Positions 9,769 to 56,754 of a DNA stretch of 60,457 nt are shown here, piece after piece (the stretch's first letter is position 1; every line of letters begins with the position of its first letter). The notes beneath the pieces were generated by a model. The model was not told the DNA's origin. It did not search any database and saw only the letters and a program-made list of their open reading frames with translations. This stretch comes from Candidatus Nanoarchaeia archaeon (GTDB lineage: Archaea; Nanobdellota; Nanobdellia; Woesearchaeales; UBA10216): positions 1 through 60,457 of the forward strand of contig JANQSZ010000027.1 in the NCBI GenBank assembly GCA_028279045.1, read 5' to 3'. The translations under genes were made by a program, and so were the position numbers.

Positions 9769-10578
9769 ATGCTTATCTCTGCAACTGATTTATCATCGTA
9801 TTTGTATTGCCCTCGCAAGCTCTACTTAGCGAAAGTGCTCAAGATCCGCGAGCCTGTAAAGGATGTCATGATTCGCGGTACAGTCATGCACGAAACATTT
9901 GATGGCATCGCATTGCAAGAACAAGCATTAATCGAAGCAATTTCACCATCAACAACCCAGCAAGATTTGTTTGAATCCTACAAAACAACGTATTCGAAAA
10001 TCTTACGAGATGCAATCCTCAAAAACAAAAAAACATTGATGGATGTCAACTTAATTCCTGGCGAATTATTTGTTGATCTCTGGCCGTACGTGCACGGCGA
10101 AGCAGAAACCCGCGTCCAAGACGTTTTCTCGTTTGCAAAAACAAAATCAATCTTCGGACAAGAATTGTGGCAAAAATTAGAACCAAAAGTTCTTTCAGAA
10201 CTCCGCATCGAATCTGAAAACTTGCAATTGAAAGGTATTGTCGATCAGATCCATGTCTTCGAAGACAAACATGTTCCTATCGAACTCAAAACAGGCCGTA
10301 CTCCAATGGAAGGCGTCTGGCCATCCCACAGAATTCAAGTTGGTGTTTACGCTTTGCTTGTCGGCGAAAAGTTCGACACACCAGTGCCGCATGGCATCGT
10401 CCGCTATTTAGAAACCAAACAAGACCGTCCTGTTGCCATGAATCCATTCCTCGAGATGGAAATCAAAGAACTTGTCCAGCAAGTCCAGAACCTTCTAGAG
10501 TCATCAGAGATCCCTGACTGCCAGGAAAAGAACAAAGCATGCATGAAACTCTTCCCTCCAGAAACACTACCGACATAG
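9769..10578 (+). CDS. Cas4-like / RecB-family PD-(D/E)xK exonuclease, stand-alone
   Basis: 269 aa. N-terminal LSSYLYCPRKLYL, nuclease core GIVDQIHV...PIELKTGR, QVGVYALLV, and C-terminal Cys pair DCQEKNKAC. No CRISPR array or other cas genes occur in the window. Confidence 0.75.
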   Translation: MLISATDLSSYLYCPRKLYLAKVLKIREPVKDVMIRGTVMHETFDGIALQEQALIEAISPSTTQQDLFESYKTTYSKILRDAILKNKKTLMDVNLIPGELFVDLWPYVHGEAETRVQDVFSFAKTKSIFGQELWQKLEPKVLSELRIESENLQLKGIVDQIHVFEDKHVPIELKTGRTPMEGVWPSHRIQVGVYALLVGEKFDTPVPHGIVRYLETKQDRPVAMNPFLEMEIKELVQQVQNLLESSEIPDCQEKNKACMKLFPPETLPT

Positions 10579-11314: not shown

Positions 11315-12271
11315 ATGAGCTCTACTCTATGGACTGAAAAGCACAGGCCAACTAATTTTGATGATATTCGCGGCCAAAAAGAGATTATTAGCCGTATTTC
11401 TGCTTTTGTAGAGAAGCAAAACATTCCTCATTTGATGTTTGCAGGACCGCCAGGTGTTGGCAAAACCTCAACTGCTTTAGTCATCGCAAAACAAATGTTC
11501 GGAGAAAACTGGCGCCAAAACGTTCTAGAGTTAAACGCTTCTGATGAGCGGGGTATTGACGTTGTGCGTACAAAAGTGAAAGACTTTGCCCGTACAAGAG
11601 CAATCGGTAACGTTCCCTTCCGTATATGTATTCTCGACGAGTGTGACTCATTAACCAAAGAAGCACAGCAAGCGTTACGAAGAACAATGGAAAACTACAC
11701 GCAAACGTGCCGTTTCATCCTACTCGCTAATTATTCTTCCAAAATTATCGATCCAATTCAAAGCCGGTGCGCAGTTTTCCGCTTCAAGCCGTTATCAAAA
11801 GAGGAAATCTTCAATATTGTTGACATGATTGCTCAGAAAGAGAACGTCAAGGTCTCTCCTGATGGCAAAGAAGCTCTCTATGAAGTAAGCGGTGGCGATT
11901 GCCGCAAGCTAGAGAACATCATGCAATCTGTAGCCGCGATCAACAATGAAGTCACAAATGAGTCTGTTTACTACGTAGCAAGTGCTGCCAAACCAAAAGA
12001 AATAAAAGAAATACTCACACAGTCATTACAGAACAATTTCGAAGGGGCTCGGGGAAAGCTGCTGGAGACCATGTTGAGCCAAGGCCTTTCAGGCTTGGAT
12101 GTCATCCGTCAAATGCAGCAAGAAGTCCTCTCGTTAGACATCGATTCCCGCAAAAAGCTCAAGATGATTGAGAAATGCGGTGATATCGAGTTCAGAATGG
12201 TTGAAGGTGCGGACGAGTTCATTCAACTCGAAGCGCTCCTTAGTCAATTTGCACTATTAGCAGATGCCTAA
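11315..12271 (+). CDS. rfcS: Replication factor C small subunit
   Basis: 318 aa. WTEKHRP, Walker A GPPGVGKT, DEAD-like ILDECD, SRC motif PIQSRCAVFRF. No intein. Confidence 0.95.
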   Translation: MSSTLWTEKHRPTNFDDIRGQKEIISRISAFVEKQNIPHLMFAGPPGVGKTSTALVIAKQMFGENWRQNVLELNASDERGIDVVRTKVKDFARTRAIGNVPFRICILDECDSLTKEAQQALRRTMENYTQTCRFILLANYSSKIIDPIQSRCAVFRFKPLSKEEIFNIVDMIAQKENVKVSPDGKEALYEVSGGDCRKLENIMQSVAAINNEVTNESVYYVASAAKPKEIKEILTQSLQNNFEGARGKLLETMLSQGLSGLDVIRQMQQEVLSLDIDSRKKLKMIEKCGDIEFRMVEGADEFIQLEALLSQFALLADA

Positions 12272-14345
12272 AAACGAGGTGACAAAAAAGAGAAGTGAAG
12301 ACGTTCTAGATACGTTCACCCCTCAAGAGCTTGATCGCCTACAACGCCGTTCTTTAATGAAAGACGATCAAATTGTCAAGCTTCAACGCGAGCTCGACAC
12401 CATCAATTCTTCTCATCGTCATATCGAACAAGAACTTCGCAGCCAGCTCACCGAAAAAAGCAATGAGGTTGCTCAACTTTCTCGTTTATTTACGCAAGCA
12501 GACAAACGTTCGCGCGAAGCTGAAAAGCAATTAGAGTCTCAACTCCGTCGAGAACGTCAACTAATGCGTACTCTACAATCGCAACCAAAGAAAAAGGAAA
12601 CATCTGCACATGAAAAAGTTCTCCAACAAACAGTTGATGAACTTCGGCAACACGTCAAAGATCGAACAGGCGAAATCGAACACCTGGAAACACTTGTAGC
12701 ACGAAAAGAACATATTCTTCTCGAGTTACAAAAGAACGCCGATACCCAAATCGCTCAAAAGGACGAGCAAATCAAAGTTCTCCAGCGTGAAGTTGAGAAA
12801 CGTGATAAGTTTGCTGATCAGCGAGAGGAACTTATTGCATTACGGCAGCAATTCGTCGCCAAGGAAGCGTCCACAAAGGAGCTCGTCAAGGATTTATCTT
12901 CTCTTAAGAAAATAAACGCACAGTACAACGCGCAAATTCAACAAAAACAAACAGAAATCGAAAAAATACGTTCTCAGTTGAAAGATTCCAAAACAAAAGG
13001 CGTTGTCAGCGAAACGCGATCGTTATCAGCAGAGTTTGACACGCTTTCCAAGCAACTCGAGCAGCGCGATCAAGAAATCGCACGATTAAACAAGCTCGGA
13101 TTAACCGATCAACAAGCATACGATGCAACGATACGTCAGATGGATGAGCAAATGAAATCTCGTCTCTCAGAAATAGACCGTCTTACTCAGCTTGTCAACA
13201 CCCGCGACAAAATGTTGCAAGATTTAACCCATAGTTTTGAAACGCAGCTCAATGAAAAGGACAAGCTCGTCGAGAAGATCAAGAGTCAGCTAACCAAGCG
13301 TGCAATTCCAACAGCTCATCAGGAGCAGGAAATTCATCGTCTTGAAGAAGAAATCGCACTCAAAGAAGCTTCAACCAAGTCATTATTGGAAGATTTCGCT
13401 TCCGTGAAGAAGCTTAACACCACACTCACAAAAGAACTCAAGGAATCTGTTGAGAAAATAGAAGCGCTTGAAGCGCAGTACGGCGAACTTCTTAACACAA
13501 CCCGCGTCTCCCGCGAGAAACACATTAAGGATGTTACCGAGAACTACGCACGACGCGAACTCCAGCACAGAAATGAGTTGGAAAAGATGCGCATCAAGAT
13601 CGCTACACAAGAATCTATTCTCAAAGAGAAGCAGCAAGCAATTGATGACATGCTGACTCAATTTTCTACTGTTACCAAGCAACTTCTCGGTATGAGAGGC
13701 AGCGAAGCTCCTGTATTCAAGCAGCCTGCCGTCTCTCAAGATGAAGAACGTTTAGCAAAAGAACTCAAAGAAGAAGCAGAAGAGCTTATGCTGCAAGCAA
13801 AGCAGCGCGAAGAAACAGTGCAGCGTCAAGAGCAACTTCTTCACAAGGAGCAAGAAACCCTCCAGGGAGAGATCGAAGTTCTCAAGCAAGCAGGTATGGA
13901 GCTACGAAGAACAAAAGACTATCTCAAAGATAAGCTTTCAGAAGTTCCTGATTCTATAGAAAAACGTGTAGAACCAAAGGAGCCAGAACCGGTCGAAGAG
14001 CCAGCTCCAGAATTACCAGAGCCTCCTGTGATGGAAGCACCAATTGCAACTCCTGCCATCGAGCCACCTTCTGAAGAGCCGAAGCAAGTTGAAGCTCTCC
14101 CATTACCGAAGGCAGAAGACATCATGTCTCCCCCTCCTCCCCCTAAGATCACTTCTCTTCCACAATCAGCTCACCCTGCTGACGAACCCTCTGTTTTCGG
14201 TCCGTATAGCGAAGAAAACGAAATACATCACATGGTGAATGTTGCATTACAGCACGGCGAAGAACCAAAGCATATCAAGCATTCTCTATTGCAATCTGGC
14301 TACGCAGAAAAAGTCATCGATAAAATTCTTAAGAAGATAAAGTAA
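12264..14345 (+). CDS. Large coiled-coil protein with a Pro/Glu-rich segment and a small C-terminal globular domain
   Basis: 693 aa. It is almost entirely heptad-like E/K/Q/L-rich sequence with an internal duplication, then EPKEPEPVEEPAPELPEPPV...SPPPPPK. No Walker motifs. The start overlaps rfcS by 8 nt. Confidence 0.8.
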   Translation: MPKNEVTKKRSEDVLDTFTPQELDRLQRRSLMKDDQIVKLQRELDTINSSHRHIEQELRSQLTEKSNEVAQLSRLFTQADKRSREAEKQLESQLRRERQLMRTLQSQPKKKETSAHEKVLQQTVDELRQHVKDRTGEIEHLETLVARKEHILLELQKNADTQIAQKDEQIKVLQREVEKRDKFADQREELIALRQQFVAKEASTKELVKDLSSLKKINAQYNAQIQQKQTEIEKIRSQLKDSKTKGVVSETRSLSAEFDTLSKQLEQRDQEIARLNKLGLTDQQAYDATIRQMDEQMKSRLSEIDRLTQLVNTRDKMLQDLTHSFETQLNEKDKLVEKIKSQLTKRAIPTAHQEQEIHRLEEEIALKEASTKSLLEDFASVKKLNTTLTKELKESVEKIEALEAQYGELLNTTRVSREKHIKDVTENYARRELQHRNELEKMRIKIATQESILKEKQQAIDDMLTQFSTVTKQLLGMRGSEAPVFKQPAVSQDEERLAKELKEEAEELMLQAKQREETVQRQEQLLHKEQETLQGEIEVLKQAGMELRRTKDYLKDKLSEVPDSIEKRVEPKEPEPVEEPAPELPEPPVMEAPIATPAIEPPSEEPKQVEALPLPKAEDIMSPPPPPKITSLPQSAHPADEPSVFGPYSEENEIHHMVNVALQHGEEPKHIKHSLLQSGYAEKVIDKILKKIK
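12669..12923 (+). repeat. Internal protein repeat, copy 1 (within the coiled-coil gene)
   Basis: GEIEHLETLVARKEHILLELQ...LIALRQQFVAKEASTKELVKDLSSLKKIN aligns with copy 2 at an offset of about 166 residues. Confidence 0.7.
13167..13424 (+). repeat. Internal protein repeat, copy 2 (within the coiled-coil gene)
   Basis: SEIDRLTQLVNTRDKMLQDLT...IHRLEEEIALKEASTKSLLEDFASVKKLN. It is diverged at nucleotide level, so this is an old duplication. Confidence 0.7.
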
Positions 14346-15299
14346 TTATTGTGATAAGTGTTTTACAATGAGTTCTGTTGACTTAATTTCCTCGTATTCA
14401 TAATCCATGATAACTCGAACAGTCTTTTCTGCGTCAACATCTTCTACCTCTTGCGTACACGTAAAGGTTGCATCTCCGTTTGTTAGGAGTACATATCCTT
14501 CATGATCATCTAGTCCGTCTCTATCAAACAATCCAAGGCATTTTATTGGGTTCGATCCTAGCCCTGTCTGTACAGAGACAAAAACTTTGTTCTCGTCAAC
14601 AAACGAACTTGAATCACAGGAAACACCACTTGTGCTGGTGTCTGATTTGAATATGTTCCCATTACCTCTCTGCGATACCGTAAACGTCAACAAGATCGTA
14701 TCTGTTCCCGCAACGCTTTGCTTGAAACTGGTAATTTGAACTGGAGCTCCGGAATTGTGAATTGTTTTTGTACCGCTTACTTCACATACCCCTTCATCCG
14801 TGTCGAGTAAGTTTTCTCTCATACAGTATTGTCCATTGGCAATAGTTTGATATTGGTAACAGACTTCTGCCCGAACAGGAAACTTAACATTTCCATCAAG
14901 ATTGCCCTTATAGTTCAATCCATCGATGTGAACTTGTGTTTGTGTTCCCGGAATTTCATTTCCTTCTGGATCTTTTCGTACTGGTTCTAAATCATCAACA
15001 GGCGGCTGTCTTTGCAACTCACCTAGCCCTTTGTCAAAATCCGCTGGGAAAAGTCCACTAATTGTGACGTGTGCTTGACTTCTCAGCACCTTGTGTTCTC
15101 CTTCATTTGTCAACTTAACAATGATATCAAACGGAAACTGCCCATTGTCTGCCACTTCTTTTGGCGGAGCATTTTCCAAGAACTCTATAATTAGCCCATT
15201 GGTACCGCCAATAAACGGCGTATCATTACCAGGAGCAGTCTCTGTAGTACATGCTGCTATGAAAACAACAAGTCCTAGGAGAAGGTACCCTCTTTTCAT
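14346..15299 (-). CDS. Secreted Cys-rich lipoprotein, paralogue A (envelope operon)
   Basis: 317 aa. Signal peptide plus lipobox-like MKRGYLLLGLVVFIAAC. It is collinear with the paralogue at 15335-16267 (IEFL, NEG, CYQY, GAPV, Y.Y...s..iv. C-terminus). A TTTAAATA-like element lies about 23 nt upstream. Confidence 0.75.
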   Translation of the reverse strand: MKRGYLLLGLVVFIAACTTETAPGNDTPFIGGTNGLIIEFLENAPPKEVADNGQFPFDIIVKLTNEGEHKVLRSQAHVTISGLFPADFDKGLGELQRQPPVDDLEPVRKDPEGNEIPGTQTQVHIDGLNYKGNLDGNVKFPVRAEVCYQYQTIANGQYCMRENLLDTDEGVCEVSGTKTIHNSGAPVQITSFKQSVAGTDTILLTFTVSQRGNGNIFKSDTSTSGVSCDSSSFVDENKVFVSVQTGLGSNPIKCLGLFDRDGLDDHEGYVLLTNGDATFTCTQEVEDVDAEKTVRVIMDYEYEEIKSTELIVKHLSQ

Positions 15300-15334
15300 G
15301 AGTGAAAATCCGTATTTTACGTATTTAAAGCTTT

Positions 15335-16267
15335 CTATTCGATAGTAACAATCTTTGACTCCGTCACTCTGTATCCATAATTCAAAATAACGCGTAAGTT
15401 CCTAGTAAATTCTGGGTCATTCACACTAAATCGCTGTCCTGATCTACACGTTACAAAATTCTCCTTATCAGTTCTACTAAAGCTCAGCGTTTCATCGCAA
15501 TCCAGAACATCATTTCCAAACATAGCACTTACCCGTACCTTGTTCAAGTATTCAGGCTCAATAGAGATATCATTACATCCAGTGCGGTAATGGTTTTCAT
15601 CAAGAATATCTCCATCTCCAACATTCTTCAGGAATATTCTGAAAGTAGGTCGTACATGCGTGATTCCAGTACTTCCTTCTGCTTCCAATAATGGCGAAAC
15701 TTTTGTAACAGCTACTGGCGCTCCCTGACTCTTCAACCGTATGTCTTTTGTCTCACATGTCGATTCAATGTCTGTAATCGCAAATTCGTTTGTGTTAACA
15801 CAAATAGGGGTTCCTGCTCGTGTTTCATATTGATAGCACGCAGAAACCTCAACTATGGTGTTCCATCGGTTGCTTGGCGGCAGTTCAACACGATGCATTA
15901 AAGCGTCGAAATCAAGAAGTTCTCTCCCTCCCACCTTTGCGTTAGGGATTCGTTCTCTTCCAAACAAGGTAAATACTCTTTCAGTGCCTCTTGGATCGTT
16001 CGGTTCAATGACTTCTTTTACTGTTGTAAGCGTAAGAAACACATCTTTTGCTTCAACAGCACCTTCGTTTATTACTTCAACACCAATTTTCATTGGGCGA
16101 GGTTGATTTATCGGATTGACGTACGTATCTGGAAAGAGTTTATCAAGAAATTCTATAGTAACACCATCATTTCCAGAGTATGCATGTGCAGTACTCGGCA
16201 GACTACCGTCTCCACTAGTACACGCTGCCAAAAACACCAACAGCCCAACAATCAACCAGAGTTTCAT
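15335..16267 (-). CDS. Secreted Cys-rich lipoprotein, paralogue B (envelope operon)
   Basis: 310 aa. MKLWLIVGLLVFLAAC lipobox-like signal. Its ATG overlaps the stop of the upstream gene (ATGA). Confidence 0.75.
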   Translation of the reverse strand: MKLWLIVGLLVFLAACTSGDGSLPSTAHAYSGNDGVTIEFLDKLFPDTYVNPINQPRPMKIGVEVINEGAVEAKDVFLTLTTVKEVIEPNDPRGTERVFTLFGRERIPNAKVGGRELLDFDALMHRVELPPSNRWNTIVEVSACYQYETRAGTPICVNTNEFAITDIESTCETKDIRLKSQGAPVAVTKVSPLLEAEGSTGITHVRPTFRIFLKNVGDGDILDENHYRTGCNDISIEPEYLNKVRVSAMFGNDVLDCDETLSFSRTDKENFVTCRSGQRFSVNDPEFTRNLRVILNYGYRVTESKIVTIE

Positions 16268-18732
16268 ATCTCATCCTCCGAGATAAACTCACTCACCGGC
16301 GCACAAAATTCTTCTTCCCCATCCCAACGAGATTCAAATTCATCAACGTAATTATTCGCTTTATCCGGACAGGCCCCTGCACCATTATAACCGCGCGCTG
16401 CAGCATACCAACCACTTAGTCCACCTTCACAATTCAATCCAGTTTTTTCATAAGCTTCAAACTGTTCTCTGAAATGATTCGCTCCAGCAAAAATATTGCA
16501 TCTCATATCAAATGCTGTTTCCCCGTCGCATTCAGGAATGTCACAAATTCCTCGATCTTCAGCATCCAAATCATAGCAGCCAGGGTGAGCGCGAGAGGCG
16601 CTATTGATTTGCATTGCTCCATAAGAATTTTCAGGGTCTTTTGATTTACGTGCTGTTTCACCATCTACGCTATGTAAAAAGTCGTGCCCCGTTTCAATGT
16701 CTACTATTGCCAAGAGCGCAGTTGCAGGTACGTCATATCGGCACGCAGCTTGGCGAACAAGCTCCAGAACTTGCGATTGCTGCTCAGATGGGTTTTCAGG
16801 AACAACAACTCTGTTTCCAGTAGGCGCATCAGTATTAGAGGTGGTAATTCCTGTGTAGACAACATCAACTTCCGTCGACACGCGATAATCAATATTTGCA
16901 GTTGTAATTATGTTGATCTTTCGTCTTCCATTTGTATCCGCAAGGATCTTACTTGCATCTTTCAAATTAATAGGACATTCATATCGTTTAATGATGTCAG
17001 GATCAATTATTTTTTCTGTTTCTGAACTTCGCAAGCGATAAGTTTTCCTTCCATTACTATCTGAGACCTGATCGAAATCACAATTATCGCCAGTGGTCAA
17101 TTCAATATCTTTTGGCATAGTAAATTCTAAACTATTCACCTTCAACAAGGATCCATCCCATAATTTGTGATTCTCAAACGCAACTGAATATTCATTAACT
17201 TCAGATTCCGGGCCTACAGGAATGAAGAAACCAAACATTTCTACATTATACAATCCAAATATGACTGGCCCTGCCGTCGAGACTGCTTGTGGTGTAACCT
17301 GGGCAAGTTGATCTCTTGACAGTGGCGGGTGCGGTTCTTCTGTTTCAATTTCTAATTGCCTAAAGGCCTCTATTTCATTCTCATGTATCAAATACACTTC
17401 GTACCAATTCTGAACATCCATGCTGTAATCAACACTAAACGTCACTACGCCACCGCTATCTTCCAACTCACCAGCCTCAACGCGACAGCTCAGTTCCTTT
17501 GGCCCGCGATAAGGGAAGGGTACTTTAATAAATTCATTTTCTTGAATCTGCCCTCGTTCCCCAGGCTCGGTCTGGCACATTACTCCTTCTACCATAATCT
17601 CCTTATTCACCAAATTAGAACCAGGTATTTCTGACAAAATAACCGAAGGCGTAATATCGTTCGGATCGTCAAAGTAATTATTAATAGGGCGCTGTGCCCC
17701 TCCGGCGACCGTCCAATAGTCCCGCAGGACTAGCCCAGTTCGCTCCCCAGTTTGTTGATTGTAATAATCAACTCCCTGTGCTTGTTCTAATCGTTTATCC
17801 CACGACAACCTAAAATCTGTCCACAGTTCATCAAATCCTTCTGGTATGCTCCGCGTCAGTTCTTCAGCACGTTGTCGTTGTTCAGCATCAATAGCCTGAC
17901 TAAATTCGTTGGATGCTCCGCCTGCAACTGTATAAATAATTGGCATGTAGATGAAAATAACAAGTGCTATTGCTGCAATGTATTTCCATACTCTTCCTCT
18001 ATACAAGAAGAACCCATACAAGTACATGATCGGCACAAACTGTGCAGGCGGCAGAGAAAAGCCAGCCACGCCTACGCCCGATAGTCCACCTAAGCCTGGT
18101 AAAAATGAGAGTGAACCAATCGTAATATTTGCAAAGTAAGGGTAGAACCAAACAAGCAATGTCAATTTAATGTATGTCTTCAATCGATTTCCTTGAACTT
18201 CAAACACTGCCCACGCTACAAAGATAGAAAACAAGTACAAGAACATGATAGGACCAAACTTAATCCCGCCTTCTATAATCGCAATTCCCAATCCTGGTCG
18301 AACAAACCCTGTTGCAAGATCCATCCAGTGCAGTATACCAAAGAAGAGAAAATAGGCAAAAGGTAATTGTGCGAATGCTTTTGGTAAAGAATCTCCTGTG
18401 ATCGGGGCCGCAGATATTCCCGGCATCTTCTTCTTCCCAGCCCGAACTTTCGCTCTACTAAATTTGGCAAATTGCTTTCCTTGCCGCACAAACCCACTGT
18501 AGAATCGATCACGATCTTTGTTCGCTTCTTTAGCAGCATCTTTATTCTGCTTCAGCGCCTTTTCATCTTCTCCGATTTCGTCATAGGCAAAAGCAGATTG
18601 TTTTTGTTGCTCTGATGAAAGCATGTCATGTACTTGGTCATCATCGCGACTTACTCTAAAGGGACCTATCTTAAATCCTCTTTTTCCCATGTCTTGGAGT
18701 CGTTTCACTATGTTATCACTACCCGTAAACAC
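16264..18732 (-). CDS. Polytopic membrane protein with a beta-rich ectodomain and a C-terminal SLT-type lytic transglycosylase domain
   Basis: 822 aa with a GTG start on the ORF track. The N-terminal region of about 125 aa is charged. About 5-6 hydrophobic helices occupy residues ~125-290. The ectodomain has modules ending like the lipoproteins (TFSVDYSMDVQNWYEVYLI; INIITTANIDYRVSTEVDVVY). The C-terminus carries all three SLT motifs: VDIETG, YGAMQIN and ARGYNGAG. Confidence 0.8.
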   Translation of the reverse strand: MFTGSDNIVKRLQDMGKRGFKIGPFRVSRDDDQVHDMLSSEQQKQSAFAYDEIGEDEKALKQNKDAAKEANKDRDRFYSGFVRQGKQFAKFSRAKVRAGKKKMPGISAAPITGDSLPKAFAQLPFAYFLFFGILHWMDLATGFVRPGLGIAIIEGGIKFGPIMFLYLFSIFVAWAVFEVQGNRLKTYIKLTLLVWFYPYFANITIGSLSFLPGLGGLSGVGVAGFSLPPAQFVPIMYLYGFFLYRGRVWKYIAAIALVIFIYMPIIYTVAGGASNEFSQAIDAEQRQRAEELTRSIPEGFDELWTDFRLSWDKRLEQAQGVDYYNQQTGERTGLVLRDYWTVAGGAQRPINNYFDDPNDITPSVILSEIPGSNLVNKEIMVEGVMCQTEPGERGQIQENEFIKVPFPYRGPKELSCRVEAGELEDSGGVVTFSVDYSMDVQNWYEVYLIHENEIEAFRQLEIETEEPHPPLSRDQLAQVTPQAVSTAGPVIFGLYNVEMFGFFIPVGPESEVNEYSVAFENHKLWDGSLLKVNSLEFTMPKDIELTTGDNCDFDQVSDSNGRKTYRLRSSETEKIIDPDIIKRYECPINLKDASKILADTNGRRKINIITTANIDYRVSTEVDVVYTGITTSNTDAPTGNRVVVPENPSEQQSQVLELVRQAACRYDVPATALLAIVDIETGHDFLHSVDGETARKSKDPENSYGAMQINSASRAHPGCYDLDAEDRGICDIPECDGETAFDMRCNIFAGANHFREQFEAYEKTGLNCEGGLSGWYAAARGYNGAGACPDKANNYVDEFESRWDGEEEFCAPVSEFISEDEI

Positions 18733-18764
18733 GATTCTTAAAGGTTTGCCTTTTTAAAGAGAAG

Positions 18765-19946
18765 TTAATCTTTTAGTAATTCTACTTCTAAATCTACGAT
18801 ATGCAGCGTAGTCCGCGGCTCAATTCGGACAAAATTATTCCCATCTTCAATGAACCGCGTGATATCTTTAGTATAGTTGAAATCCCTCTGATCAAACGAA
18901 GTGCGTCTATTATTAATATTCAAATTAGCAGCCTTTCGCTCATCATCATCTACCATGTGGATTCGCAGTTCAGCTTTCATCGAACCATTCTCAATCCGGT
19001 CAAATTGTGTTTCGTTCACATCAAAGAAATAAATAGGGAAAATCGGTTTCTCAAGTTCTGTATTCACCGACACTTGATCAATCAAGTACTTTCCACTTTC
19101 AGCACTAAACCGAACAGTGTTCCTTCCTTCCACAATATCATCAGGGTCAACATTCAAGCGTACTGGTGATCCGCAATCAGGTACGCTAGATGACAACAAC
19201 ACTTCATTTAACGTAATGCGCAATCGTCCAACATCTCGAATTGTACACTCTACGAAGTAAATTAAATGTGCTTCCTCAATGTTTCCTGCTTCTTCCCGGC
19301 TCACTAAGAAATTATTCTCAGCGTCGCTGTTATCAGCATTCTCAACCGTTCCTGTAATCTTTACGTTCCGCAAATCATAGAAGTTTGAACTAAAAAAGTT
19401 TAAAGGACCAACAGGGCTTGCCCGAAATTCAAGCACATTTTCTTCCTGCAGTATTCCCAAATTAATTGGTGCAAATACATCAGTTACTTCTCCATTAAAC
19501 AATTCATCATCATTCAACATGATGATAAGCCGCCCTTTGTGATCGTTAACTGTCAAGCTCAACTGCGCATTTTCTGTGCTAGGATCTGTAATCAAAGCCA
19601 TAGTCTTTGTTGTCTGCTCAGATCTGCTAGTCTCAACAAATACAGACTGTAATTCTTTCAGCACTTTGTCCTCTTTTGACTTGAAGAGGTTCACACTAGG
19701 CAGTTTATGTTGGAATTCTCGATCAGTCTCCTTGAAGATAGTGCCCGGACTCTCATCCAGTACAACCTCTTCATCATCCTCTACGTCTTCGTCATCATCA
19801 GAATCTGTATCTTCATCTAGTAGGTCTGCCCGGTCTTCAGGGGGCAAGAAGAGAATATAGAGTATTATGAACGCTGCAATAACCATTACGAGAATAGCAG
19901 CACTACTACCACCTTGTCCTTTTTTTCGACGCACAGTAGTCTTCAC
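18765..19946 (-). CDS. Membrane-anchored extracellular protein with a pilin-like N-terminus and a poly-acidic tract (first gene of the envelope operon)
   Basis: 393 aa on the ORF track, starting at GTG 19946. The N-terminus is (MKTTV)RRKKGQGGSSAAILVMVIAAFIILYILFL followed by DEDTDSDDDEDVEDDEE. Promoter geometry favours the in-frame GTG at 19934 as the true start. Confidence 0.7.
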   Translation of the reverse strand: MKTTVRRKKGQGGSSAAILVMVIAAFIILYILFLPPEDRADLLDEDTDSDDDEDVEDDEEVVLDESPGTIFKETDREFQHKLPSVNLFKSKEDKVLKELQSVFVETSRSEQTTKTMALITDPSTENAQLSLTVNDHKGRLIIMLNDDELFNGEVTDVFAPINLGILQEENVLEFRASPVGPLNFFSSNFYDLRNVKITGTVENADNSDAENNFLVSREEAGNIEEAHLIYFVECTIRDVGRLRITLNEVLLSSSVPDCGSPVRLNVDPDDIVEGRNTVRFSAESGKYLIDQVSVNTELEKPIFPIYFFDVNETQFDRIENGSMKAELRIHMVDDDERKAANLNINNRRTSFDQRDFNYTKDITRFIEDGNNFVRIEPRTTLHIVDLEVELLKD

Positions 19947-19957
19947 TCTATAGTTAG

Positions 19958-19967
19958 ATATTTAAAT
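19958..19967. promoter_or_regulatory. Palindromic TATA element (ATATTTAAAT), probably shared by the divergent pelota gene and the envelope operon
   Basis: The TTTAAA centre at about 19963.5 is 26-27 nt from the pelota ATG at 19990, and about 29 nt from GTG 19934 on the other strand. Confidence 0.45.
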
Positions 19968-39749: not shown

Positions 39750-41228
39750 TCAGCTCTTCTGGGCAGTCCTCTTGGCCGCGATCACAGGATTTTTGCACCT
39801 ACTGCAGATATCCTCAGCACACTTGACTCCCAAGTCTTTATAATAGGCATCATTGGCACAGTTCGGTGGAGCCTTCCCTTTGCCCTGCCTCTTGTGGTAG
39901 CTCAGCTGGCTCTTTATATAGACCTCTCGCAGTGGCTCCTTATTCACCTTGTTCCACTCCTCTACTCGAGCCTCTATAGCATCGGGTTCCCAGCCCACGC
40001 TACCCAGAAAATTCGTCAATATGAATAATCCCCGTTTTTTCCCATCATCCATTCCAGCCAGAATCTTCTTGATACACTCTGGAAAGTACTTCTCTTCTAT
40101 AGCCTCATCCGGAATCTCGTATTCCTGCGGCTTCTCTTCTTCTACTTCTGGAGCCACAAAGCTGTAGTCCAGTGCATGCTGCAGCAAATCCTCAGCATCT
40201 CCTTGTGCTTGCCGATCCAGCCAGCCATGCTTCGGCCCTGCAAACTGGCTGCCTTCAGCTGTCTTTTCATCAAACTCCGGAATGCGATCAGGATCGATCG
40301 GCAACGAAATCCTACTTGATTTCTCATGCAGCGAGTACGCCATCCGGTACATGTGTCTGCTACTAAACAATAACGCATCCAAACTCAAAATTTTCTTTAC
40401 ATTCAGTATCGGTTTGAAATTTATTGCAGGACATCCGCAGTGCGCTGCTTCTTTTACTTCATGAATTTCCTCTTTGATAAATTTCCCACCGCAATTGATA
40501 CATTCTTCAACAGGGTTTCCAAATTGTTTTGTGCAACTTTTACAAACATAAACTTTTTTCTCTTCACTTTTCCCTTCTAATCGAATGTGATGCACCATGC
40601 ATTCTTGTTGCAACAATTCTTTCTCACTTACCCCAACCATTTCCGCTACTTTGGAACGTTCTATTTTCGTTCCTGCAAAACTTATGGCTGTTCCCTCGAC
40701 GGAAACCACATGCAATTCCACAATTCTAATTAAGTATTCAATAATCCTTTTGGGATACTCAGGGAATTCTTTTGCAACATCTTTCTCTCCCATATAATCC
40801 GGAAACGCTTGCCACGGCACTCCAATATGAAATCCTTTATTGCCAGAATATTTCGCAGAAATACTTTTTACTCCTTCTCTACGCAATGCAGCAACCAAAC
40901 TCGCTGCAATGTGCTTAGATAACGCCAATGATGGACAATCAACATCCAGGATTAAATCCCATCCCATCCGCAGTTCATCTAAATCTTGCCGCCGCATGCC
41001 AGTTTGCAATTGCAACGGATTACTCCACAATTCTTCAGATGCATGAAAACTCGTCGCTCCTTGTTTCGCAAGTTCCAGCACATCTTGCTCATAACTTAAC
41101 ACGTCCGGCCGCTTCCCAAAGTGCGTGTCGAACCGCACTGCTACTTCCTTGCGCTGCCCCTCCTCAACCATGCACTTCTGCACGTCGGGGCGTTTATAAT
41201 GATTTAATCGGATGGAAGGATGGATCAT
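39750..41228 (-). CDS. priS: DNA primase: PriS catalytic domain fused to a PriL-CTD-like Fe-S domain
   Basis: 492 aa. AEP motifs DLILDVDC, SGNKGFHI and YRMAYSLHEKS. Zn knuckle CKSC...CINC. The C-terminal ~110 aa has FPECIKKIL...KRGLFILTNFL...QLSYHKR...PPNC...KCAEDICSRC, which resembles the 4-Cys PriL C-terminal domain. Confidence 0.85.
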   Translation of the reverse strand: MIHPSIRLNHYKRPDVQKCMVEEGQRKEVAVRFDTHFGKRPDVLSYEQDVLELAKQGATSFHASEELWSNPLQLQTGMRRQDLDELRMGWDLILDVDCPSLALSKHIAASLVAALRREGVKSISAKYSGNKGFHIGVPWQAFPDYMGEKDVAKEFPEYPKRIIEYLIRIVELHVVSVEGTAISFAGTKIERSKVAEMVGVSEKELLQQECMVHHIRLEGKSEEKKVYVCKSCTKQFGNPVEECINCGGKFIKEEIHEVKEAAHCGCPAINFKPILNVKKILSLDALLFSSRHMYRMAYSLHEKSSRISLPIDPDRIPEFDEKTAEGSQFAGPKHGWLDRQAQGDAEDLLQHALDYSFVAPEVEEEKPQEYEIPDEAIEEKYFPECIKKILAGMDDGKKRGLFILTNFLGSVGWEPDAIEARVEEWNKVNKEPLREVYIKSQLSYHKRQGKGKAPPNCANDAYYKDLGVKCAEDICSRCKNPVIAAKRTAQKS

Positions 41229-41271
41229 CTAGTGCGGAAGATTTTTAGTGATTATATGGTTTCCGCATTGC

Positions 41272-42327
41272 ATGAGTGATCTCATAGAATCAAAAGTTGA
41301 TCTAGAAGACCTGGCTGACGAGCTTGCTGCCGAATTAGGACTATCTCCAAGCGAGGATCACTCTTTACCACTTTTGCTCAACGGAGAGCAAATCAGCGAA
41401 ATTTCTGTTTATTCCCAATCAGTACATGTCGACAACTACTATGTGGCGCAAAAAATCCTTGTGCATTTAGCAGGAGGCGATCCTCGGAAATTTAGGTGGG
41501 GGAGCGGTTCGGTGTATGGTGATTTAGGGGCAAAGGTCGGAGGACTAATTGCACCCACCTTTCCTGACACAGAAGACATGCCTCTTAATGATCGCACAGC
41601 TGCCGCTAGAAGATTACGGGAAATATACCAACAGTCACAACTTGCACTAAAAAAATGGGAAGACAAAGATGTTGCAAACGCATTCAAAGGATTAATTGAT
41701 GTCATGCGTGAAACAGAAAAAACAATGTATGATTTCGTGATGTCCTATGGAGTACCAACTCCTCCAACGCTTATTTCTGACGAGCCAACGCCAGAGCATG
41801 TATCTGAAGTGTACGATGTCCTTGATCGTATGTTTGATGAAGAGCTAGTTAGAGATCGTGTGAAACGAATTGATGATGTGGGTATTCGTCCTGCAAACAC
41901 ACCTGATATTTGGGTGAACATCACAGATAACAGATACATGCCGTCAAGAATACTAGAATTAGGAATCCTAGATCCAGGGAGAGCGCATCTCAGTATAGAA
42001 CTCCCAAGAGCTGAGCAATACAACAATTTCATCAGAAACTCTGCACAAGAAGGGGTGCAAAATGCTCTTCGTGAAAGAATTCCGTGGGAAGGAGTAACCG
42101 TTAGTGAACGATTCTATGAACCAATCTTTGTAGGCATTCCTTTGCCAAGAAATGACGAAGCAGATCCTACCTTGCAGGATTGGTTAGATCCAGCTACATA
42201 TCTTTCTGCGTTTATGATAGCAATAGGAAACGACCTGCGTAAGATGTTCGACGACACAGTAACAAAAGCTTCAGCTAAAGTACAACCTTTCGAAAAATTC
42301 TATCAAGAACCTAAAAAACTAGAATAA
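41272..42327 (+). CDS. Hypothetical protein (no recognisable domain)
   Basis: I trimmed the ORF 41248-42327 (GTG start) to ATG 41272, which is 15-25 nt after an AT-rich TATA-like tract. About 351 aa, acidic, Arg-rich rather than Lys-rich. Confidence 0.6.
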   Translation: MSDLIESKVDLEDLADELAAELGLSPSEDHSLPLLLNGEQISEISVYSQSVHVDNYYVAQKILVHLAGGDPRKFRWGSGSVYGDLGAKVGGLIAPTFPDTEDMPLNDRTAAARRLREIYQQSQLALKKWEDKDVANAFKGLIDVMRETEKTMYDFVMSYGVPTPPTLISDEPTPEHVSEVYDVLDRMFDEELVRDRVKRIDDVGIRPANTPDIWVNITDNRYMPSRILELGILDPGRAHLSIELPRAEQYNNFIRNSAQEGVQNALRERIPWEGVTVSERFYEPIFVGIPLPRNDEADPTLQDWLDPATYLSAFMIAIGNDLRKMFDDTVTKASAKVQPFEKFYQEPKKLE

Positions 42328-47574: not shown

Positions 47575-47853
47575 ATGTTAAAGATGAAGCGTATCACAGA
47601 GGCGTACGATATGAAAGTATTTACAGACTCTGGTGAATATTTCGGTGATGTTGAAGAAGCAATCCTTACTGCTACTAAAGTATCTGGCTGGCGAGTCCGA
47701 GCAACAAGAAATTCTTTTCTAAACAAAATTTTAGGAAGCGCTAAAGGGGTTATTGTACCACACCAGCTCGTAAAGAGTATTGGTGATGTCATGATAATTT
47801 CGAAGTCCGCCGTCCCTAATTACGGACCAGACGACGAAGAACCAGAAGCTTAA
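47575..47853 (+). CDS. PRC-barrel domain protein (second copy)
   Basis: I trimmed the ORF 47302-47853 to ATG 47575, which is preceded by GGAGGT at 47561-47566. AYDMKVFTDSGEYFGDVEEAIL...VIVPHQLVKSIGDVMIIS. Confidence 0.7.
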   Translation: MLKMKRITEAYDMKVFTDSGEYFGDVEEAILTATKVSGWRVRATRNSFLNKILGSAKGVIVPHQLVKSIGDVMIISKSAVPNYGPDDEEPEA

Positions 47854-48998
47854 GCTACGTTACTCAGTTCGTTGTCGCGTGCAACACGATTGTGCAGCAT
47901 TGCTTCAACGAACATATTGTAGTTTCCAATTGGAACCATTTCCGTTTCTATCTTCATCTGTTCTGGTAGCACAACAACATTTGGTGCATCATCCAGAGAA
48001 ATTCCTCTTGGACTTTCAAAGGCAACTTGCCTAATTGTTTTCATAAAAAATTCAACTTTATCTTCAGTAGCATCCGGGAATAGATTTGGAATACGCCATC
48101 CTGGATTCTGCCGAAGCAATTCTCTGCGAGCTTGTCGGTATGCTATCATAGTATGATGGTCCAACAACGTTTCGGGTGTGTTCCGACTTTGCTCTTCTGA
48201 TTCTGAACGCTCTCGTCGGTAGACAACTTCATACCAATCTTTTCTATCACATTGGTGTGGATCATGAAATGCATAACTCGCTTCTATTGCTTTTGGTGTT
48301 ATCTCCTCCCCTTGAAATACTGGAACGTGATTCAAAACAACTTGATACCCGTTCCCTCCTGATAGGCTCGGCACATTCCGTGTAACGACTTGCGCTCCTT
48401 TTTCAAAAACATCGTCAGTATCTGTATAGCTCAAAACATCAACAACATCTGGTAACTGTGTATCGACAACAGTTGCTCGCATAAGATCATACAATGTGAA
48501 CGCGCGCAGTCTCCTATCAGCCCAATTGGAACCATCCACGTCGTATCCAGAACGAAGATCTCCCAATTTTTCTCTTGATGCTGCATCACGAAATGCATCA
48601 ACAGAAGAAACAGGCGCGTCTTGATTAGCATATCTCCGAATCGTTACTAGCGGTCCGCGTTTCTGCAATCGTCTTCCTTCCATGAACGGAACAATCCCTA
48701 AAGAAAGTGGAATAATAAGCCGCTGATCAGTTTCCAATCCTTCAGCAATCGTAACAATCTCTCGCCACTTATCTTCATGACTTGCTAGTTTCAGGTAATC
48801 AGGATAAATCACTGCTTCATCTGCAATCAATTGCTCAAGAATGTCATCTCTCTTGTAGTTGTACTGCCCAACAGTAAATCCAGCTTGCTCTAGCCCAGGC
48901 CGCAACATCTCACGTATCTTCGGCGGATCAAATTGATTCCCTAGTGTTTCTTGTACCATGCCAATGACGAATGCAATTTCGTTTTTAAAGCCTCCCAA
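47850..48998 (-). CDS. Hypothetical protein (no recognisable domain)
   Basis: 382-aa ORF with a TTG start on the track. The first in-frame ATG is at 48959. Arg/Asp/Glu-rich and cytoplasmic-looking. Divergent from 49055-49699. Confidence 0.6.
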   Translation of the reverse strand: MGGFKNEIAFVIGMVQETLGNQFDPPKIREMLRPGLEQAGFTVGQYNYKRDDILEQLIADEAVIYPDYLKLASHEDKWREIVTIAEGLETDQRLIIPLSLGIVPFMEGRRLQKRGPLVTIRRYANQDAPVSSVDAFRDAASREKLGDLRSGYDVDGSNWADRRLRAFTLYDLMRATVVDTQLPDVVDVLSYTDTDDVFEKGAQVVTRNVPSLSGGNGYQVVLNHVPVFQGEEITPKAIEASYAFHDPHQCDRKDWYEVVYRRERSESEEQSRNTPETLLDHHTMIAYRQARRELLRQNPGWRIPNLFPDATEDKVEFFMKTIRQVAFESPRGISLDDAPNVVVLPEQMKIETEMVPIGNYNMFVEAMLHNRVARDNELSNVA

Positions 48999-56743: not shown

Positions 56744-56754
56744 GTGTTCCCCTC

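What the first reader, a model, noticed from the sequence alone, without database searches (positions are those of the whole stretch)
14346..19946. Four-gene envelope operon of unknown function: pilin-like anchored protein, polytopic membrane/SLT fusion, and two paralogous lipoproteins
Seen in sequence: four co-directional minus-strand genes are packed with a 4-nt ATGA overlap and spacers of 32-35 nt. Every product carries an export signal or TM helices: 393 aa with an N-terminal anchor, 822 aa with about 5-6 TMs, and 310 and 317 aa with lipobox-like ...AAC signals. The two lipoproteins are collinear paralogues. The 822-aa ectodomain contains two modules that end with the same beta-strand pattern (v.v...Y.Y....s..v.v). 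Apart from the SLT domain I recognise no family in about 1800 residues. Inference: this looks like a dedicated surface machine rather than a generic S-layer. It combines a membrane-embedded platform, a murein-cleaving head and Ig-like Cys-stabilised accessory lipoproteins. In a reduced, probably host-dependent archaeon it could serve to contact or breach a bacterial partner's cell wall, or to scavenge peptidoglycan.
Basis: partly seen in the sequence, partly recalled or inferred. Interest (0 to 1): 0.8.

Follow-up and report, generated by a model that had tools for sequence, protein, structure and literature searches.

The report
Conserved Woesearchaeota envelope cluster with murein hydrolase
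Four neighbouring genes encode a set of membrane- and lipid-anchored surface proteins that nearly all Woesearchaeota-type (DPANN) archaea carry at the same chromosomal spot; in this organism one of them has picked up a bacterial-cell-wall-cutting enzyme domain, a hint that the complex touches bacterial walls, although its core function is still unknown.

Summary
Four minus-strand genes sit at the stated coordinates: A (393 aa), B (822 aa), and two lipoproteins of 310 and 317 aa. The ATGA overlap and the 32- and 35-nt spacers are as described. None of the four has a Pfam, NCBIfam, PHROG, PADLOC or PDB-sequence match, apart from a divergent SLT domain at the B C-terminus. That domain is real: it has the catalytic residue E680, and the predicted fold matches MltC and MltE.

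The cluster is a core locus, not an island. In 80 species-representative Woesearchaeota/Nanoarchaeia genomes the usual order is PheRS–TrmB–Pelota | A–B–three lipoproteins | RFC. This window and its closest relative have lost the middle lipoprotein.

The B ectodomain is probably a distant paralogue of the lipoproteins. B evolves much faster than its neighbours.

The SLT "head" is not part of the conserved machine. The closest relative lacks it, and only about 5% of the anchored orthologues carry any peptidoglycan hydrolase. Across the wider B family, however, SLT, M23, Amidase_2 and NlpC/P60 domains have each been fused to the same C-terminal position.

Best reading: a lineage-specific surface scaffold that here displays a lytic transglycosylase aimed at foreign (bacterial) murein. 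SLT domains in DPANN archaea were already reported; the conserved cluster and its architecture were not. Interest is moderate to high.

The parts
18765..19946 (-). Gene A: a 393-aa bitopic surface protein. Its N-terminus reads RKKGQ-GGSSAA, followed by a TM helix and the invariant LYILFLPPEDR..LL juxtamembrane motif. The beta-rich ectodomain has three 'L.I.LN...G.N.v.f' repeats.
   Evidence: ORF. Orthologues share 28-56% identity in 80+ genomes. The N-terminal motif is conserved in 80 of 80. No Pfam, NCBIfam or PDB match.
16264..18732 (-). Gene B: an 822-aa polytopic platform protein made of a cytoplasmic tail, five TM helices, a stalk helix, a two-module ectodomain and an SLT domain.
   Evidence: An HMM of the B family built without this sequence matches residues 41-800 at E 5e-52. 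AF2 model. The HMMER scan of 1.84 billion representative proteins gave 44 hits.
17923..18387 (-). B residues 116-270: a membrane domain of about five helices, N-terminus in and C-terminus out by the positive-inside rule (KKKMPG before TM1; RGRVWK before the last TM).
   Evidence: Hydropathy and AF2 helices H116-140, 148-179, 184-208, 215-243 and 247-269. The topology is inferred.
16843..17778 (-). B residues ~319-630: an extracellular double beta-sandwich ectodomain. It is the family-defining module, with conserved C386, C416, G488-P489, C551 and Y614.
   Evidence: Alignments A1 and A4. AF2 strands with pLDDT 60-93. Foldseek finds only generic beta-sandwich matches with E > 1e-3. Collinear HHalign match to the lipoprotein family, E 0.0036 local and 2.7e-4 global.
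16318..16800 (-). B residues ~645-805: a GH23/SLT lytic transglycosylase domain. The catalytic Glu E680 is encoded at 16693-16695. The domain also carries the AMQIN motif at 706-710, the GYNGAG motif at 781-786, and is Cys-rich.
   Evidence: Pfam SLT at E 0.04, below threshold. A subfamily profile hits MltC at 1.4e-4, plus EtgA and lysozymes, with the Glu aligned to the ES motif. pLDDT > 90. Foldseek probabilities: MltC 1.00, MltE 0.99, phage LT_GEWL 1.00. Motif positions.
15335..16267 (-). Lipoprotein 1 (310 aa, 'C-type' paralogue). Its start codon overlaps the stop codon of B (ATGA).
   Evidence: Lipobox VFLAAC. Best matches are the first lipoprotein of related clusters. Family alignment A7.
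14346..15299 (-). Lipoprotein 2 (317 aa, 'E-type' paralogue, orthologue of the last lipoprotein in five-gene clusters).
   Evidence: Lipobox VFIAAC. Homologues P0003-P0014 share 31-65% identity. Orthology to L1_E, L2_E and L6_E. Six conserved Cys residues, an SGAPV motif and a terminal Y.Y.
19961..19966 (-). TATA-like box TTTAAA, within the palindrome ATTTAAAT, shared by gene A and the divergent Pelota gene.
   Evidence: Unit-leading genes in the window have TTTAWA at -26 to -33. This box fits if A starts at GTG codon 5 and Pelota at ATG codon 8 (inference).
18753..18758 (-). TATA-like box in the 32-nt A/B spacer, 26 nt upstream of the B start codon.
   Evidence: Function not tested.
15324..15329 (-). 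TATA-like box (gcTTTAAAtac) in the 35-nt spacer, 30 nt upstream of the 317-aa gene.
   Evidence: It has the same distance and sequence context as the boxes before the RFC, PheRS and TyrRS-type genes.

Best explanation
The four genes are this organism's copy of a core, vertically inherited envelope module specific to Woesearchaeota/Nanoarchaeia-type DPANN archaea.

**Proposed assembly.**
- Protein B is anchored by about five TM helices, with a variable charged tail in the cytoplasm.
- A stalk helix projects a two-beta-sandwich ectodomain outward from B.
- The co-encoded lipoproteins are probably distant paralogues of that ectodomain. I infer that they assemble with it into a hetero-oligomeric surface scaffold.
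- Protein A is the most conserved member. It is bitopic and joins through its invariant TM and juxtamembrane segment.

**The add-on slot.** The distal C-terminus of B is an accretion point for extra extracellular domains. In this lineage it has captured a GH23 lytic transglycosylase whose closest relatives are the SLT domains of giant DPANN surface proteins.

**Consequence.** Archaea do not build murein. The enzyme, held at the outer face of the complex, would therefore cut the MurNAc-GlcNAc backbone of foreign (bacterial) peptidoglycan on contact. That could serve to attach to or locally open a bacterial partner's wall, or to release muropeptides.

**Shown:** gene content, conservation, anchors, the SLT fold and catalytic residue, and recurrent hydrolase fusions.

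**Inferred:** complex formation, topology, enzyme activity and the target.
For: **Conserved order.**
- The usual arrangement is Pelota | A-B-LIPx3 | RFC.
- B, or a divergent B-like protein, follows A in essentially every locus (46 of 52 by HMM; the remaining slots hold TM proteins ending in the same Y.Y hairpin).
- Three lipoproteins follow in 45 of 52 loci.

**Coupling.** B and the first lipoprotein overlap by ATGA here and in L001 and L003.

**Anchors.**
- 183 of 200 lipoprotein orthologues have a strict lipobox, and the rest have a near-lipobox Cys.
- Lipoproteins are known to be prevalent in DPANN (PMC12462473).

**B-ectodomain/lipoprotein relationship.** HHalign gives a collinear, motif-by-motif match:
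- F.F.T.AY with CY.Y.T.A
- TNGPV.IG with SGAPV.IT
- N.W.G with N.G.G
- the final Y.Y...V.V hairpin

**SLT domain.** It is validated by a profile search, by the conserved E680 and by the predicted fold.

**Hydrolase fusions at the B C-terminus.**
- SLT, Peptidase_M23, Amidase_2 and NlpC/P60 all occur at this position in B-family members.
- SLT domains of B proteins interleave with those of non-B proteins. This window's SLT is nearest to the giant proteins P0015, P0018 and P0028, which argues for repeated capture.

**Fast-evolving surface.** Between this window and its closest relative, B gives no BLAST hit while A is 56% and RFC 72% identical.

**Not mobile, viral or defence.** The flanks are housekeeping genes, PHROGs and PADLOC give no hits, and IMG/VR holds no relatives.
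Against: - Hydrolase add-ons are rare among the species-representative orthologues: 1 SLT and 1 M23 by Pfam among 62. By my own SLT HMM (built partly from the window's own sequence) the domain is on B only in this window and L009, with one further SLT protein in the B slot of L075. The core function need not involve peptidoglycan at all.
- Synteny is equally strong for the unrelated housekeeping flanks, so conserved order alone does not prove co-function.
- The B/lipoprotein homology is statistically weak (HHalign probability 9-36%).
- No structure was obtained for A or the lipoproteins.
- No expression, interaction or activity data exist.
- Each spacer holds a TATA-like box, so the genes may not form a single transcript.
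- The TM region of B was modelled with low confidence (pLDDT about 55).
Confidence: 0.55

Rival explanations
1. Structural envelope layer. A, the B ectodomain and the lipoproteins would be the building blocks or anchors of the S-layer-like cell wall of these archaea. The hydrolase domains would be occasional passengers used for scavenging, with no role in partner contact.
For: - The locus is core, single-copy and vertically inherited in nearly all relatives.
- All products are surface-anchored, beta-rich and disulfide-stabilised.
- Most orthologues lack any hydrolase.
- No S-layer protein is known for this lineage (own knowledge).
Against: - No match to any S-layer family in Pfam or PDB.
- The proteins are small for lattice subunits.
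- B diverges extremely fast, which is unusual for a lattice anchor that must fit its partners.
- Four different murein-hydrolase classes recur at one position, which suggests a functional link to bacterial walls.
Confidence: 0.22
2. Uptake or scavenging module. B would form a membrane conduit and the lipoproteins would act as binding proteins for muropeptides or other wall-derived nutrients released by the hydrolase.
For: - The combination of a polytopic membrane protein with lipoproteins resembles binding-protein-dependent uptake systems.
- DPANN archaea depend on scavenged building blocks (PMC8204110).
- The hydrolase would generate substrate.
Against: - No ATPase or known transporter family is present.
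- The TM residues of B are poorly conserved; no TM column reaches 90% conservation in A4.
- The lipoproteins show no similarity to solute-binding families.
- They look like paralogues of the B ectodomain rather than clamshell binders.
Confidence: 0.1
3. A pilus, secretion or conjugation apparatus. A would be a pilin-like subunit and B a VirB6-like channel fused to a VirB1-like transglycosylase.
For: - The [KR][GA]Q motif before the TM helix of A resembles archaeal prepilin signals (58 of 80 orthologues).
- The T3SS-associated transglycosylase EtgA is among the sequence hits of the SLT profile.
Against: - Only 12 of 80 A orthologues fit a class III signal pattern.
- There is no PilB/PilC, VirB4/VirD4, prepilin peptidase or relaxase in the window neighbourhood or in any of 87 related loci.
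- There is no TrbL/VirB6 Pfam hit.
- The locus is chromosomal core, not a mobile element, and IMG/VR holds no relatives.
Confidence: 0.04
4. The genes are merely neighbours in a rearrangement-poor genome region and do not act together.
For: - Unrelated housekeeping flanks (Pelota, TrmB, PheRS, RFC) are just as syntenic.
- TATA-like boxes sit in the spacers.
Against: - All members share the same lineage-restricted distribution, export signals, stop/start overlaps and probable paralogy between B and the lipoproteins.
- All five families lack homologues outside this lineage.
Confidence: 0.06

Closest known systems
Bacterial membrane-bound lytic transglycosylases of GH23 / family 1 (MltC, MltE, Slt70; Pfam PF01464)
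   Same: - The C-terminal domain has the same goose-lysozyme-like fold (Foldseek probabilities: MltC 1.00, MltE 0.99).
- It has a catalytic Glu in an E-S/T motif.
- It has the G-x-M-Q-I and Y-N-G motifs.
- It is anchored to the membrane.
   Different: - It is encoded by an archaeon that is not expected to make murein.
- It is very divergent and below Pfam's gathering score.
- It is Cys-rich.
- It sits at the end of a polytopic protein with a novel ectodomain rather than on a lipoprotein or a soluble periplasmic enzyme.
- Its presumed substrate is another cell's wall.
[quoted passage not shown] 2021, PMC8204110)
   Same: - Same lineage and same SLT subfamily. This window's SLT domain is nearest to those of the 1950-2293-aa proteins P0015, P0018 and P0028.
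- The same proposed role in binding or degrading bacterial walls.
   Different: - Those are giant, apparently stand-alone proteins.
- Here the domain is grafted onto the conserved A-B-lipoprotein cluster, which that paper does not describe as such. At most it may be hidden among the 51 unannotated families of 'Module 98'.
Specialised transglycosylases of envelope-spanning machines (VirB1 of T4SS, EtgA of T3SS)
   Same: The working principle is the same: a lytic transglycosylase tethered to a membrane complex so that murein is opened locally. EtgA is among the sequence hits.
   Different: - Those enzymes cut the producer's own wall to let a machine assemble.
- Here no secretion ATPases or channel families are present, and the wall would be foreign.
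- It is not a member of those systems.
Archaeal lipobox lipoproteins (Haloferax model; AliA/AliB pathway, PMC12462473)
   Same: A Sec-type signal peptide ending in [LVI][ASTVI][GAS]C, and the predicted prevalence of such proteins in DPANN.
   Different: - The mature domains belong to an undescribed family restricted to Woesearchaeota/Nanoarchaeia.
- They occur as two or three paralogues beside a membrane-anchored paralogue.
- Lipidation has not been shown.

Membership tests
GH23 / SLT lytic transglycosylase (PF01464) | Sequence match to the family model above the curated threshold | tested here: inconclusive
   The window protein alone scores 13.9 bits against a cut-off of 21.3, E 0.04. Relatives with the same domain reach E 8.7e-9 and 2.3e-13. 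A subfamily profile hits MltC at 1.4e-4, plus EtgA and lysozymes.
GH23 / SLT lytic transglycosylase (PF01464) | Catalytic glutamate in the E-S motif, plus the G-L-M-Q and A-Y-N-x-G motifs | tested here: met
   E680 (DIETG) is invariant in alignment A6 and aligns with the ES motif of MltC. AMQIN lies at 706-710 and GYNGAG at 781-786.
GH23 / SLT lytic transglycosylase (PF01464) | Lysozyme-like alpha-helical fold | tested here: met
   AF2 pLDDT is above 90 over most of residues 650-800. Foldseek probabilities: MltC 1.00, MltE 0.99 (TMt 0.44), phage LT_GEWL 1.00 (TMt 0.62).
GH23 / SLT lytic transglycosylase (PF01464) | Cleaves MurNAc-GlcNAc bonds to form 1,6-anhydroMurNAc | not testable with these tools
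   Needs an enzyme assay.
Lipobox lipoproteins | Signal peptide ending in [LVI][ASTVI][GAS]-Cys | tested here: met
   VFLAAC and VFIAAC in the window. 183 of 200 orthologues fit a strict pattern, and the other 17 have a near-lipobox Cys.
Lipobox lipoproteins | Lipid modification of the Cys and presence of the AliA/AliB machinery | not tested
   No AliA search was made, and the 60-kb window is too small to judge absence.
Archaeal type IV pilin-like proteins (class III signal peptide) | [KR][GA] cleavage site followed directly by the hydrophobic stretch (FlaFind-type pattern, recalled from memory) | tested here: not met
   58 of 80 A orthologues have [KR][GA]Q, but a polar spacer of 5-8 residues follows. 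Only 12 of 80 fit the pattern, and the window protein (KGQGGSS) does not.
Archaeal type IV pilin-like proteins (class III signal peptide) | Linked assembly ATPase, platform protein or prepilin peptidase | tested here: not met
   None is present in the cluster or its flanks, in the window or in the 87 related loci.
S-layer proteins | Match to a known S-layer family or structure | tested here: not met
   No Pfam, NCBIfam or PDB sequence hit. Foldseek finds only generic beta-sandwiches with E > 1e-3.
S-layer proteins | Forms an abundant two-dimensional lattice on the cell | not testable with these tools
   Needs cryo-ET or proteomics.
T4SS VirB6/VirB1-type module | TrbL/VirB6 domain with VirB4/VirD4 ATPases, on a mobile element | tested here: not met
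   No such Pfam hits. The flanks are Pelota, TrmB, PheRS and RFC in about 80 genomes.
Operon (single transcription unit) | Same strand, short or overlapping junctions, conserved order | tested here: met
Operon (single transcription unit) | Co-transcription from one promoter | not testable with these tools
   TATA-like boxes at -20/-32, -26 and -30 before three of the four genes allow separate leaderless transcripts. No RNA data are available.

The most novel reading that the evidence does not exclude
The A-B-lipoprotein cluster would be the core of a previously undescribed, lineage-defining cell-contact organelle of Woesearchaeota/Nanoarchaeia. In this reading it is a pseudo-symmetric heteromer of paralogous ectodomains on a five-helix membrane platform that docks the archaeon onto a partner cell. 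Its interchangeable C-terminal 'tool' (SLT, M23, amidase, NlpC/P60 or none) would reflect the wall chemistry of the partner. Hydrolase-bearing lineages such as this one would then be episymbionts or predators of bacteria, a cross-domain association not yet demonstrated for any DPANN archaeon.
Probability: 0.25. Interest if true: 0.9.

Novelty: new variant of a known kind. Interest (0 to 1): 0.62.

Why it matters
The hosts and lifestyle of Woesearchaeota, among the most widespread DPANN archaea, are unknown. Murein hydrolase domains have been the main hint that some of them interact with bacteria.

This finding ties such a domain to a universally conserved, chromosomally fixed envelope gene set, and it shows that the same attachment point has repeatedly acquired different peptidoglycan hydrolases. 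That gives concrete handles:
- five unannotated protein families to name;
- a small soluble enzyme domain to assay;
- surface proteins to localise or use as baits;
- a "tool domain" trait that could be correlated with co-occurring bacteria to predict partners.

If the core complex turns out to be purely structural, it would still fill the gap of what builds the Woesearchaeota cell surface.

Tried and rejected
- **Word-indexed homology searches with B.** B alone and the B-family alignment both returned only the query. This is a limit of the index for a fast-evolving protein, not evidence of absence. The exhaustive HMMER scan found 44 relatives.
- **Single-sequence AF2 of B.** The model was useless, pLDDT 38.
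- **AF2 with locus-derived orthologues.** It was repeated with 34 eligible sequences.
- **Profile searches against PDB sequences.** The B family gave only TM low-complexity noise such as flippase and Piezo. The A family gave nothing.
- **Foldseek hit to the soluble domain of AglB/STT3 (probability 0.85).** I considered this as a hint of a GT-C-like enzyme and rejected it: the E value is 2e-3 with TM scores of 0.12-0.19, B has only about five TM helices, and no conserved catalytic loop is evident.
- **B as a lipoprotein-processing enzyme.** Rejected, because the TM residues are poorly conserved.
- **Mobile-element, viral or defence origin.** Rejected.
- **Scan of GTDB genomes with the five-sequence A alignment, and scan of viral contigs with the lipoprotein alignment.** Both failed for lack of a conserved stretch.
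- **Bacterial promoter/terminator scan.** Not used, because the organism is an archaeon. A TATA-box count was done instead.

Full report
**1. What is in the sequence**

- A: 18765-19946, 393 aa
- B: 16264-18732, 822 aa
- lipoprotein 1: 15335-16267, 310 aa
- lipoprotein 2: 14346-15299, 317 aa

B and lipoprotein 1 overlap by ATGA. The other two junctions are 32 and 35 nt.

A has a single N-terminal hydrophobic segment. B has about five hydrophobic helices between residues 116 and 270. Both lipoproteins begin with a signal peptide ending in VFLAAC or VFIAAC. The two lipoproteins are full-length paralogues (BLASTP E 2e-14, 26% identity).

**2. The organism and the neighbourhood**

The flanking genes are archaeal housekeeping genes:
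- On one side: the RFC small subunit and a 693-aa coiled-coil protein.
- On the other side: Pelota, a TrmB regulator and PheRS alpha and beta.
- Further out: a TyrRS/TrpRS-type synthetase, an M24 peptidase, an AAA ATPase, SecY, Hef and ribonucleotide reductases.

Homologues of the 317-aa lipoprotein and of A come only from MAGs named Woesearchaeota, Nanoarchaeia or Nanoarchaeota. The closest relative is a Zodletone Woesearchaeota MAG (L008). Its identity to the window is 72% for RFC, 76% for TrmB and 56% for A.

**3. The cluster is a conserved core locus**

Contexts of lipoprotein homologues and a scan of GTDB species-representative genomes with an A-family alignment (94 relatives, 80 loci fetched) show one dominant arrangement: PheRSa–TrmB–Pelota (divergent) | A–B–three lipoproteins | RFC (convergent).

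- Of 52 loci with enough downstream sequence, 45 have three lipoproteins and 4 have two.
- B follows A in 46 of the 52 by HMM. Four of the six remaining slots hold analogous proteins with a charged N-terminus, TM helices and an ectodomain. In three of these it ends in the same Y.Y hairpin (L029, L037, L049). The fourth is the L075 SLT protein. L062 is less clear, with one TM helix and a Cys-rich C-terminus, and no ORF was listed for L020.
- Pelota lies upstream in 54 of 70 loci.

The window and L008 share a derived state with two lipoproteins. By best hits these are the "C-type" and "E-type" paralogues, so the middle one is missing. Both also have the coiled-coil gene inserted before RFC.

No relative of A was found in viral contigs. 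The cluster is therefore neither an island nor a mobile element. It is a lineage-defining gene set.

One caution applies. The unrelated housekeeping flanks are equally syntenic, so conserved order alone does not prove co-function. The case for co-function rests on four other points:
- a shared restricted distribution;
- shared export signals;
- stop/start overlaps (B/lipoprotein 1 here, in L001 and in L003; A/B separated by 1-8 nt in L001, L003 and L006);
- probable paralogy (section 5).

**4. Protein B and its SLT domain**

An exhaustive HMMER scan of 1.84 billion representatives found 44 relatives. The B family has the following parts:
- a variable, charged cytoplasmic N-terminus;
- 5-7 TM helices;
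- a ~320-residue ectodomain with the motifs ATGDYYTG.V, PLGVY, A.F.F.T.AYLK.YF, YTNGPV.IG and N.W.G, and a final Y.Y....V.V;
- often a C-terminal add-on.

An HMM built without the window protein matches it over residues 41-800 at E 5e-52.

With a 34-sequence alignment AF2 gave a usable model, mean pLDDT 66.7:
- the TM bundle is low confidence;
- a long polar stalk helix spans residues 283-318;
- two beta modules each close with a long hairpin (427-449 and 603-626);
- a helical C-terminal domain has pLDDT above 90.

That C-terminal domain matches the lytic transglycosylases MltC, MltE and MltF and phage LT_GEWL/endolysins, with Foldseek probabilities of 0.98-1.0. A profile of the DPANN SLT subfamily hits MltC (1.4e-4), EtgA and C-type lysozymes. 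The invariant Glu (E680 here, DIETG) aligns with the catalytic ES motif. The AMQIN and GYNGAG motifs are also present. The SLT assignment is sound and the active site looks intact.

The ectodomain has only generic beta-sandwich matches, all with E > 1e-3.

**5. Relationship between the B ectodomain and the lipoproteins**

The lipoprotein family has these conserved features:
- a conserved lipobox;
- six conserved Cys residues in the mature part;
- an N-terminal G.TxGL.I.F...PP.EV / N.GE beta-sandwich signature;
- a CY.Y.T.A motif;
- an SGAPV.IT motif;
- a terminal Y.Y...V.

Of 200 full-length orthologues, 183 fit a strict lipobox pattern. The other 17 have a near-lipobox Cys.

Profile-profile comparison of 83 B ectodomains with 177 lipoprotein domains gives a collinear alignment that pairs these motifs one by one. 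The local E value is 0.0036 over 160 columns, the global E value is 2.7e-4, and the probability is 9-19%. Module-wise comparisons align mainly the closing hairpins, with a best E of 3.8e-4 and probability 36%.

I read this as probable but unproven distant paralogy. On that reading, the cluster encodes one membrane-anchored and two or three lipid-anchored versions of the same ectodomain.

**6. Protein A**

A is the best conserved member. Its N-terminus is remarkably constant: basic residues, often [KR][GA]Q, then a small-residue spacer, a TM helix and an invariant (F/L)YILFLPP.ER..LL. The ectodomain shows three repeats of an "L.I.LN ... G.N.h.F" pattern and has no detectable relatives of known structure.

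The resemblance to archaeal prepilins is superficial:
- Only 12 of 80 orthologues fit a class III signal pattern (the pattern is recalled from memory).
- The window protein does not fit.
- No pilus genes accompany the cluster.

**7. The hydrolase is an add-on, but a recurrent one**

Among 62 orthologues anchored by the A search, Pfam finds one SLT, one M23, one DUF7895 and one fn3/Pur_ac_phosph_N. My SLT HMM finds the domain on B only in the window and L009, and in a 1181-aa TM protein occupying the B slot of L075. L008's B ends directly after the ectodomain. About 14 of 66 B proteins have C-terminal extensions longer than 100 residues.

In the broader family retrieved with the window protein, C-terminal SLT, Peptidase_M23, Amidase_2 and NlpC/P60 domains all occur. 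That retrieval is biased toward SLT-bearing members.

SLT domains from B proteins do not cluster together:
- The window's is nearest to those of the 1950-2293-aa proteins.
- Those of P0022 and P0039 are nearest to ~430-aa N-anchored proteins.

This pattern indicates domain shuffling among DPANN surface proteins and several independent fusions, rather than an ancestral B-SLT.

All four enzyme classes attack bacterial murein. Their repeated capture at the distal end of B is the strongest clue that this surface is presented to bacterial walls.

B is also by far the fastest-evolving member. It gives no BLAST hit between the window and L008, whereas A is 56% identical.

**8. Transcription**

Unit-leading genes in this window carry TTTAWA 26-33 nt upstream of the start codon, consistent with leaderless transcripts. 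Such boxes occur:
- 30 nt before the 317-aa gene;
- 26 nt before B;
- 20 nt before A's annotated GTG, or 32 nt before the GTG at codon 5.

The box before A lies within a palindrome shared with the divergent Pelota gene.

The cluster may therefore be three units (A; B plus lipoprotein 1; lipoprotein 2) rather than one operon. In relatives A and B are nearly contiguous. No RNA data could be consulted.

**9. Interpretation**

My best explanation (confidence about 0.55) is a lineage-specific hetero-oligomeric surface scaffold made of a B platform, paralogous lipoproteins and A. In this lineage it displays a lytic transglycosylase that acts on foreign murein.

The rivals are:
- a purely structural S-layer-like role (about 0.22);
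- an uptake module (about 0.10);
- coincidental neighbours (about 0.06);
- a pilus or secretion apparatus (about 0.04).

**10. Comparison with what is known**

Murein-like SLT domains in Woesearchaeota and Pacearchaeota, and the idea that they target bacterial walls, are published (PMC8204110; also PMC10936187). Lipoproteins are predicted to be common in DPANN (PMC12462473).

Literature searches found no description of the following:
- the conserved A–B–lipoprotein cluster;
- its fixed position next to Pelota;
- the probable paralogy between B and the lipoproteins;
- the C-terminus of B as a recurrent docking point for four classes of peptidoglycan hydrolase.

All the families involved lack Pfam coverage.

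**Verdict**

Its "murein-cleaving head" is a lineage-specific accessory. I classify it as a new variant of a known kind (surface-displayed murein hydrolases of DPANN archaea), embedded in an uncharacterised conserved envelope module.

Noticed in passing
window 19960-19967: The palindromic TATA-like box ATTTAAAT lies between the divergent gene A and Pelota. Spacing suggests that both longest-ORF starts are too far upstream, with A starting at GTG codon 5 (19934) and Pelota at ATG codon 8 (19987). The two genes may share one bidirectional promoter element for leaderless transcripts.
   Followed up: partly
window 12264-14345 (+): A 693-aa coiled-coil protein with a proline-rich C-terminal third. 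It overlaps the RFC stop codon by 8 nt and abuts the stop of the last lipoprotein gene. It has no Pfam family and only a marginal MukB/JetC-like hit. At this position it occurs only in the window, L008 and L020.
   Followed up: partly
window 54602-56767 and 56755-59760 (-): Two tandem, slightly overlapping ribonucleotide-reductase large-subunit genes, each with an ATP cone. The second is 1001 aa and its barrel domain is stretched over about 625 residues, which could mean an insertion or an intein.
   Followed up: no
window 9769-10578 (+): A Cas4 / PD-(D/E)XK (Dna2-like) nuclease gene among housekeeping genes. No CRISPR context was noticed.
   Followed up: no
window 16264-18732 vs L008:7162-9369: B diverges far faster than its neighbours. 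Between the window and its closest relative, B gives no BLAST hit at 1e-5, while RFC is 72%, TrmB 76%, PheRSa 57%, A 56%, lipoprotein E 40% and lipoprotein C 27% identical. This may reflect diversifying selection on an exposed surface.
   Followed up: partly
loci L009, L019, L021, L026, L029, L031-L033 and others: Many GTDB/TPA records that carry this Woesearchaeota-type locus are titled 'uncultured Methanosarcinales archaeon'. The label looks like a placeholder or a misassignment.
   Followed up: no
proteins P0025, P0026, P0031, P0034, P0043: A separate class of ~375-440-aa DPANN proteins has a KKG-type N-terminal anchor, an uncharacterised ~250-residue domain and the same Cys-rich SLT subfamily. 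Their SLT domains interleave with those of B proteins and of giant proteins.
   Followed up: partly
window 39750-41228, 41248-42327, 47850-48998, 51472-53001: Four sizeable ORFs (359-509 aa) have no Pfam match at E <= 1e-4.
   Followed up: no
window 1-60457: ARAGORN finds no tRNA gene in the whole 60-kb window.
   Followed up: no
L003:6699-8286 (also L004, L005): In a divergent Nanoarchaeia version of the cluster, the B slot is split into a 75-aa charged ORF plus a 452-aa TM protein that my B HMMs do not recognise. Only two lipoproteins follow.
   Followed up: no
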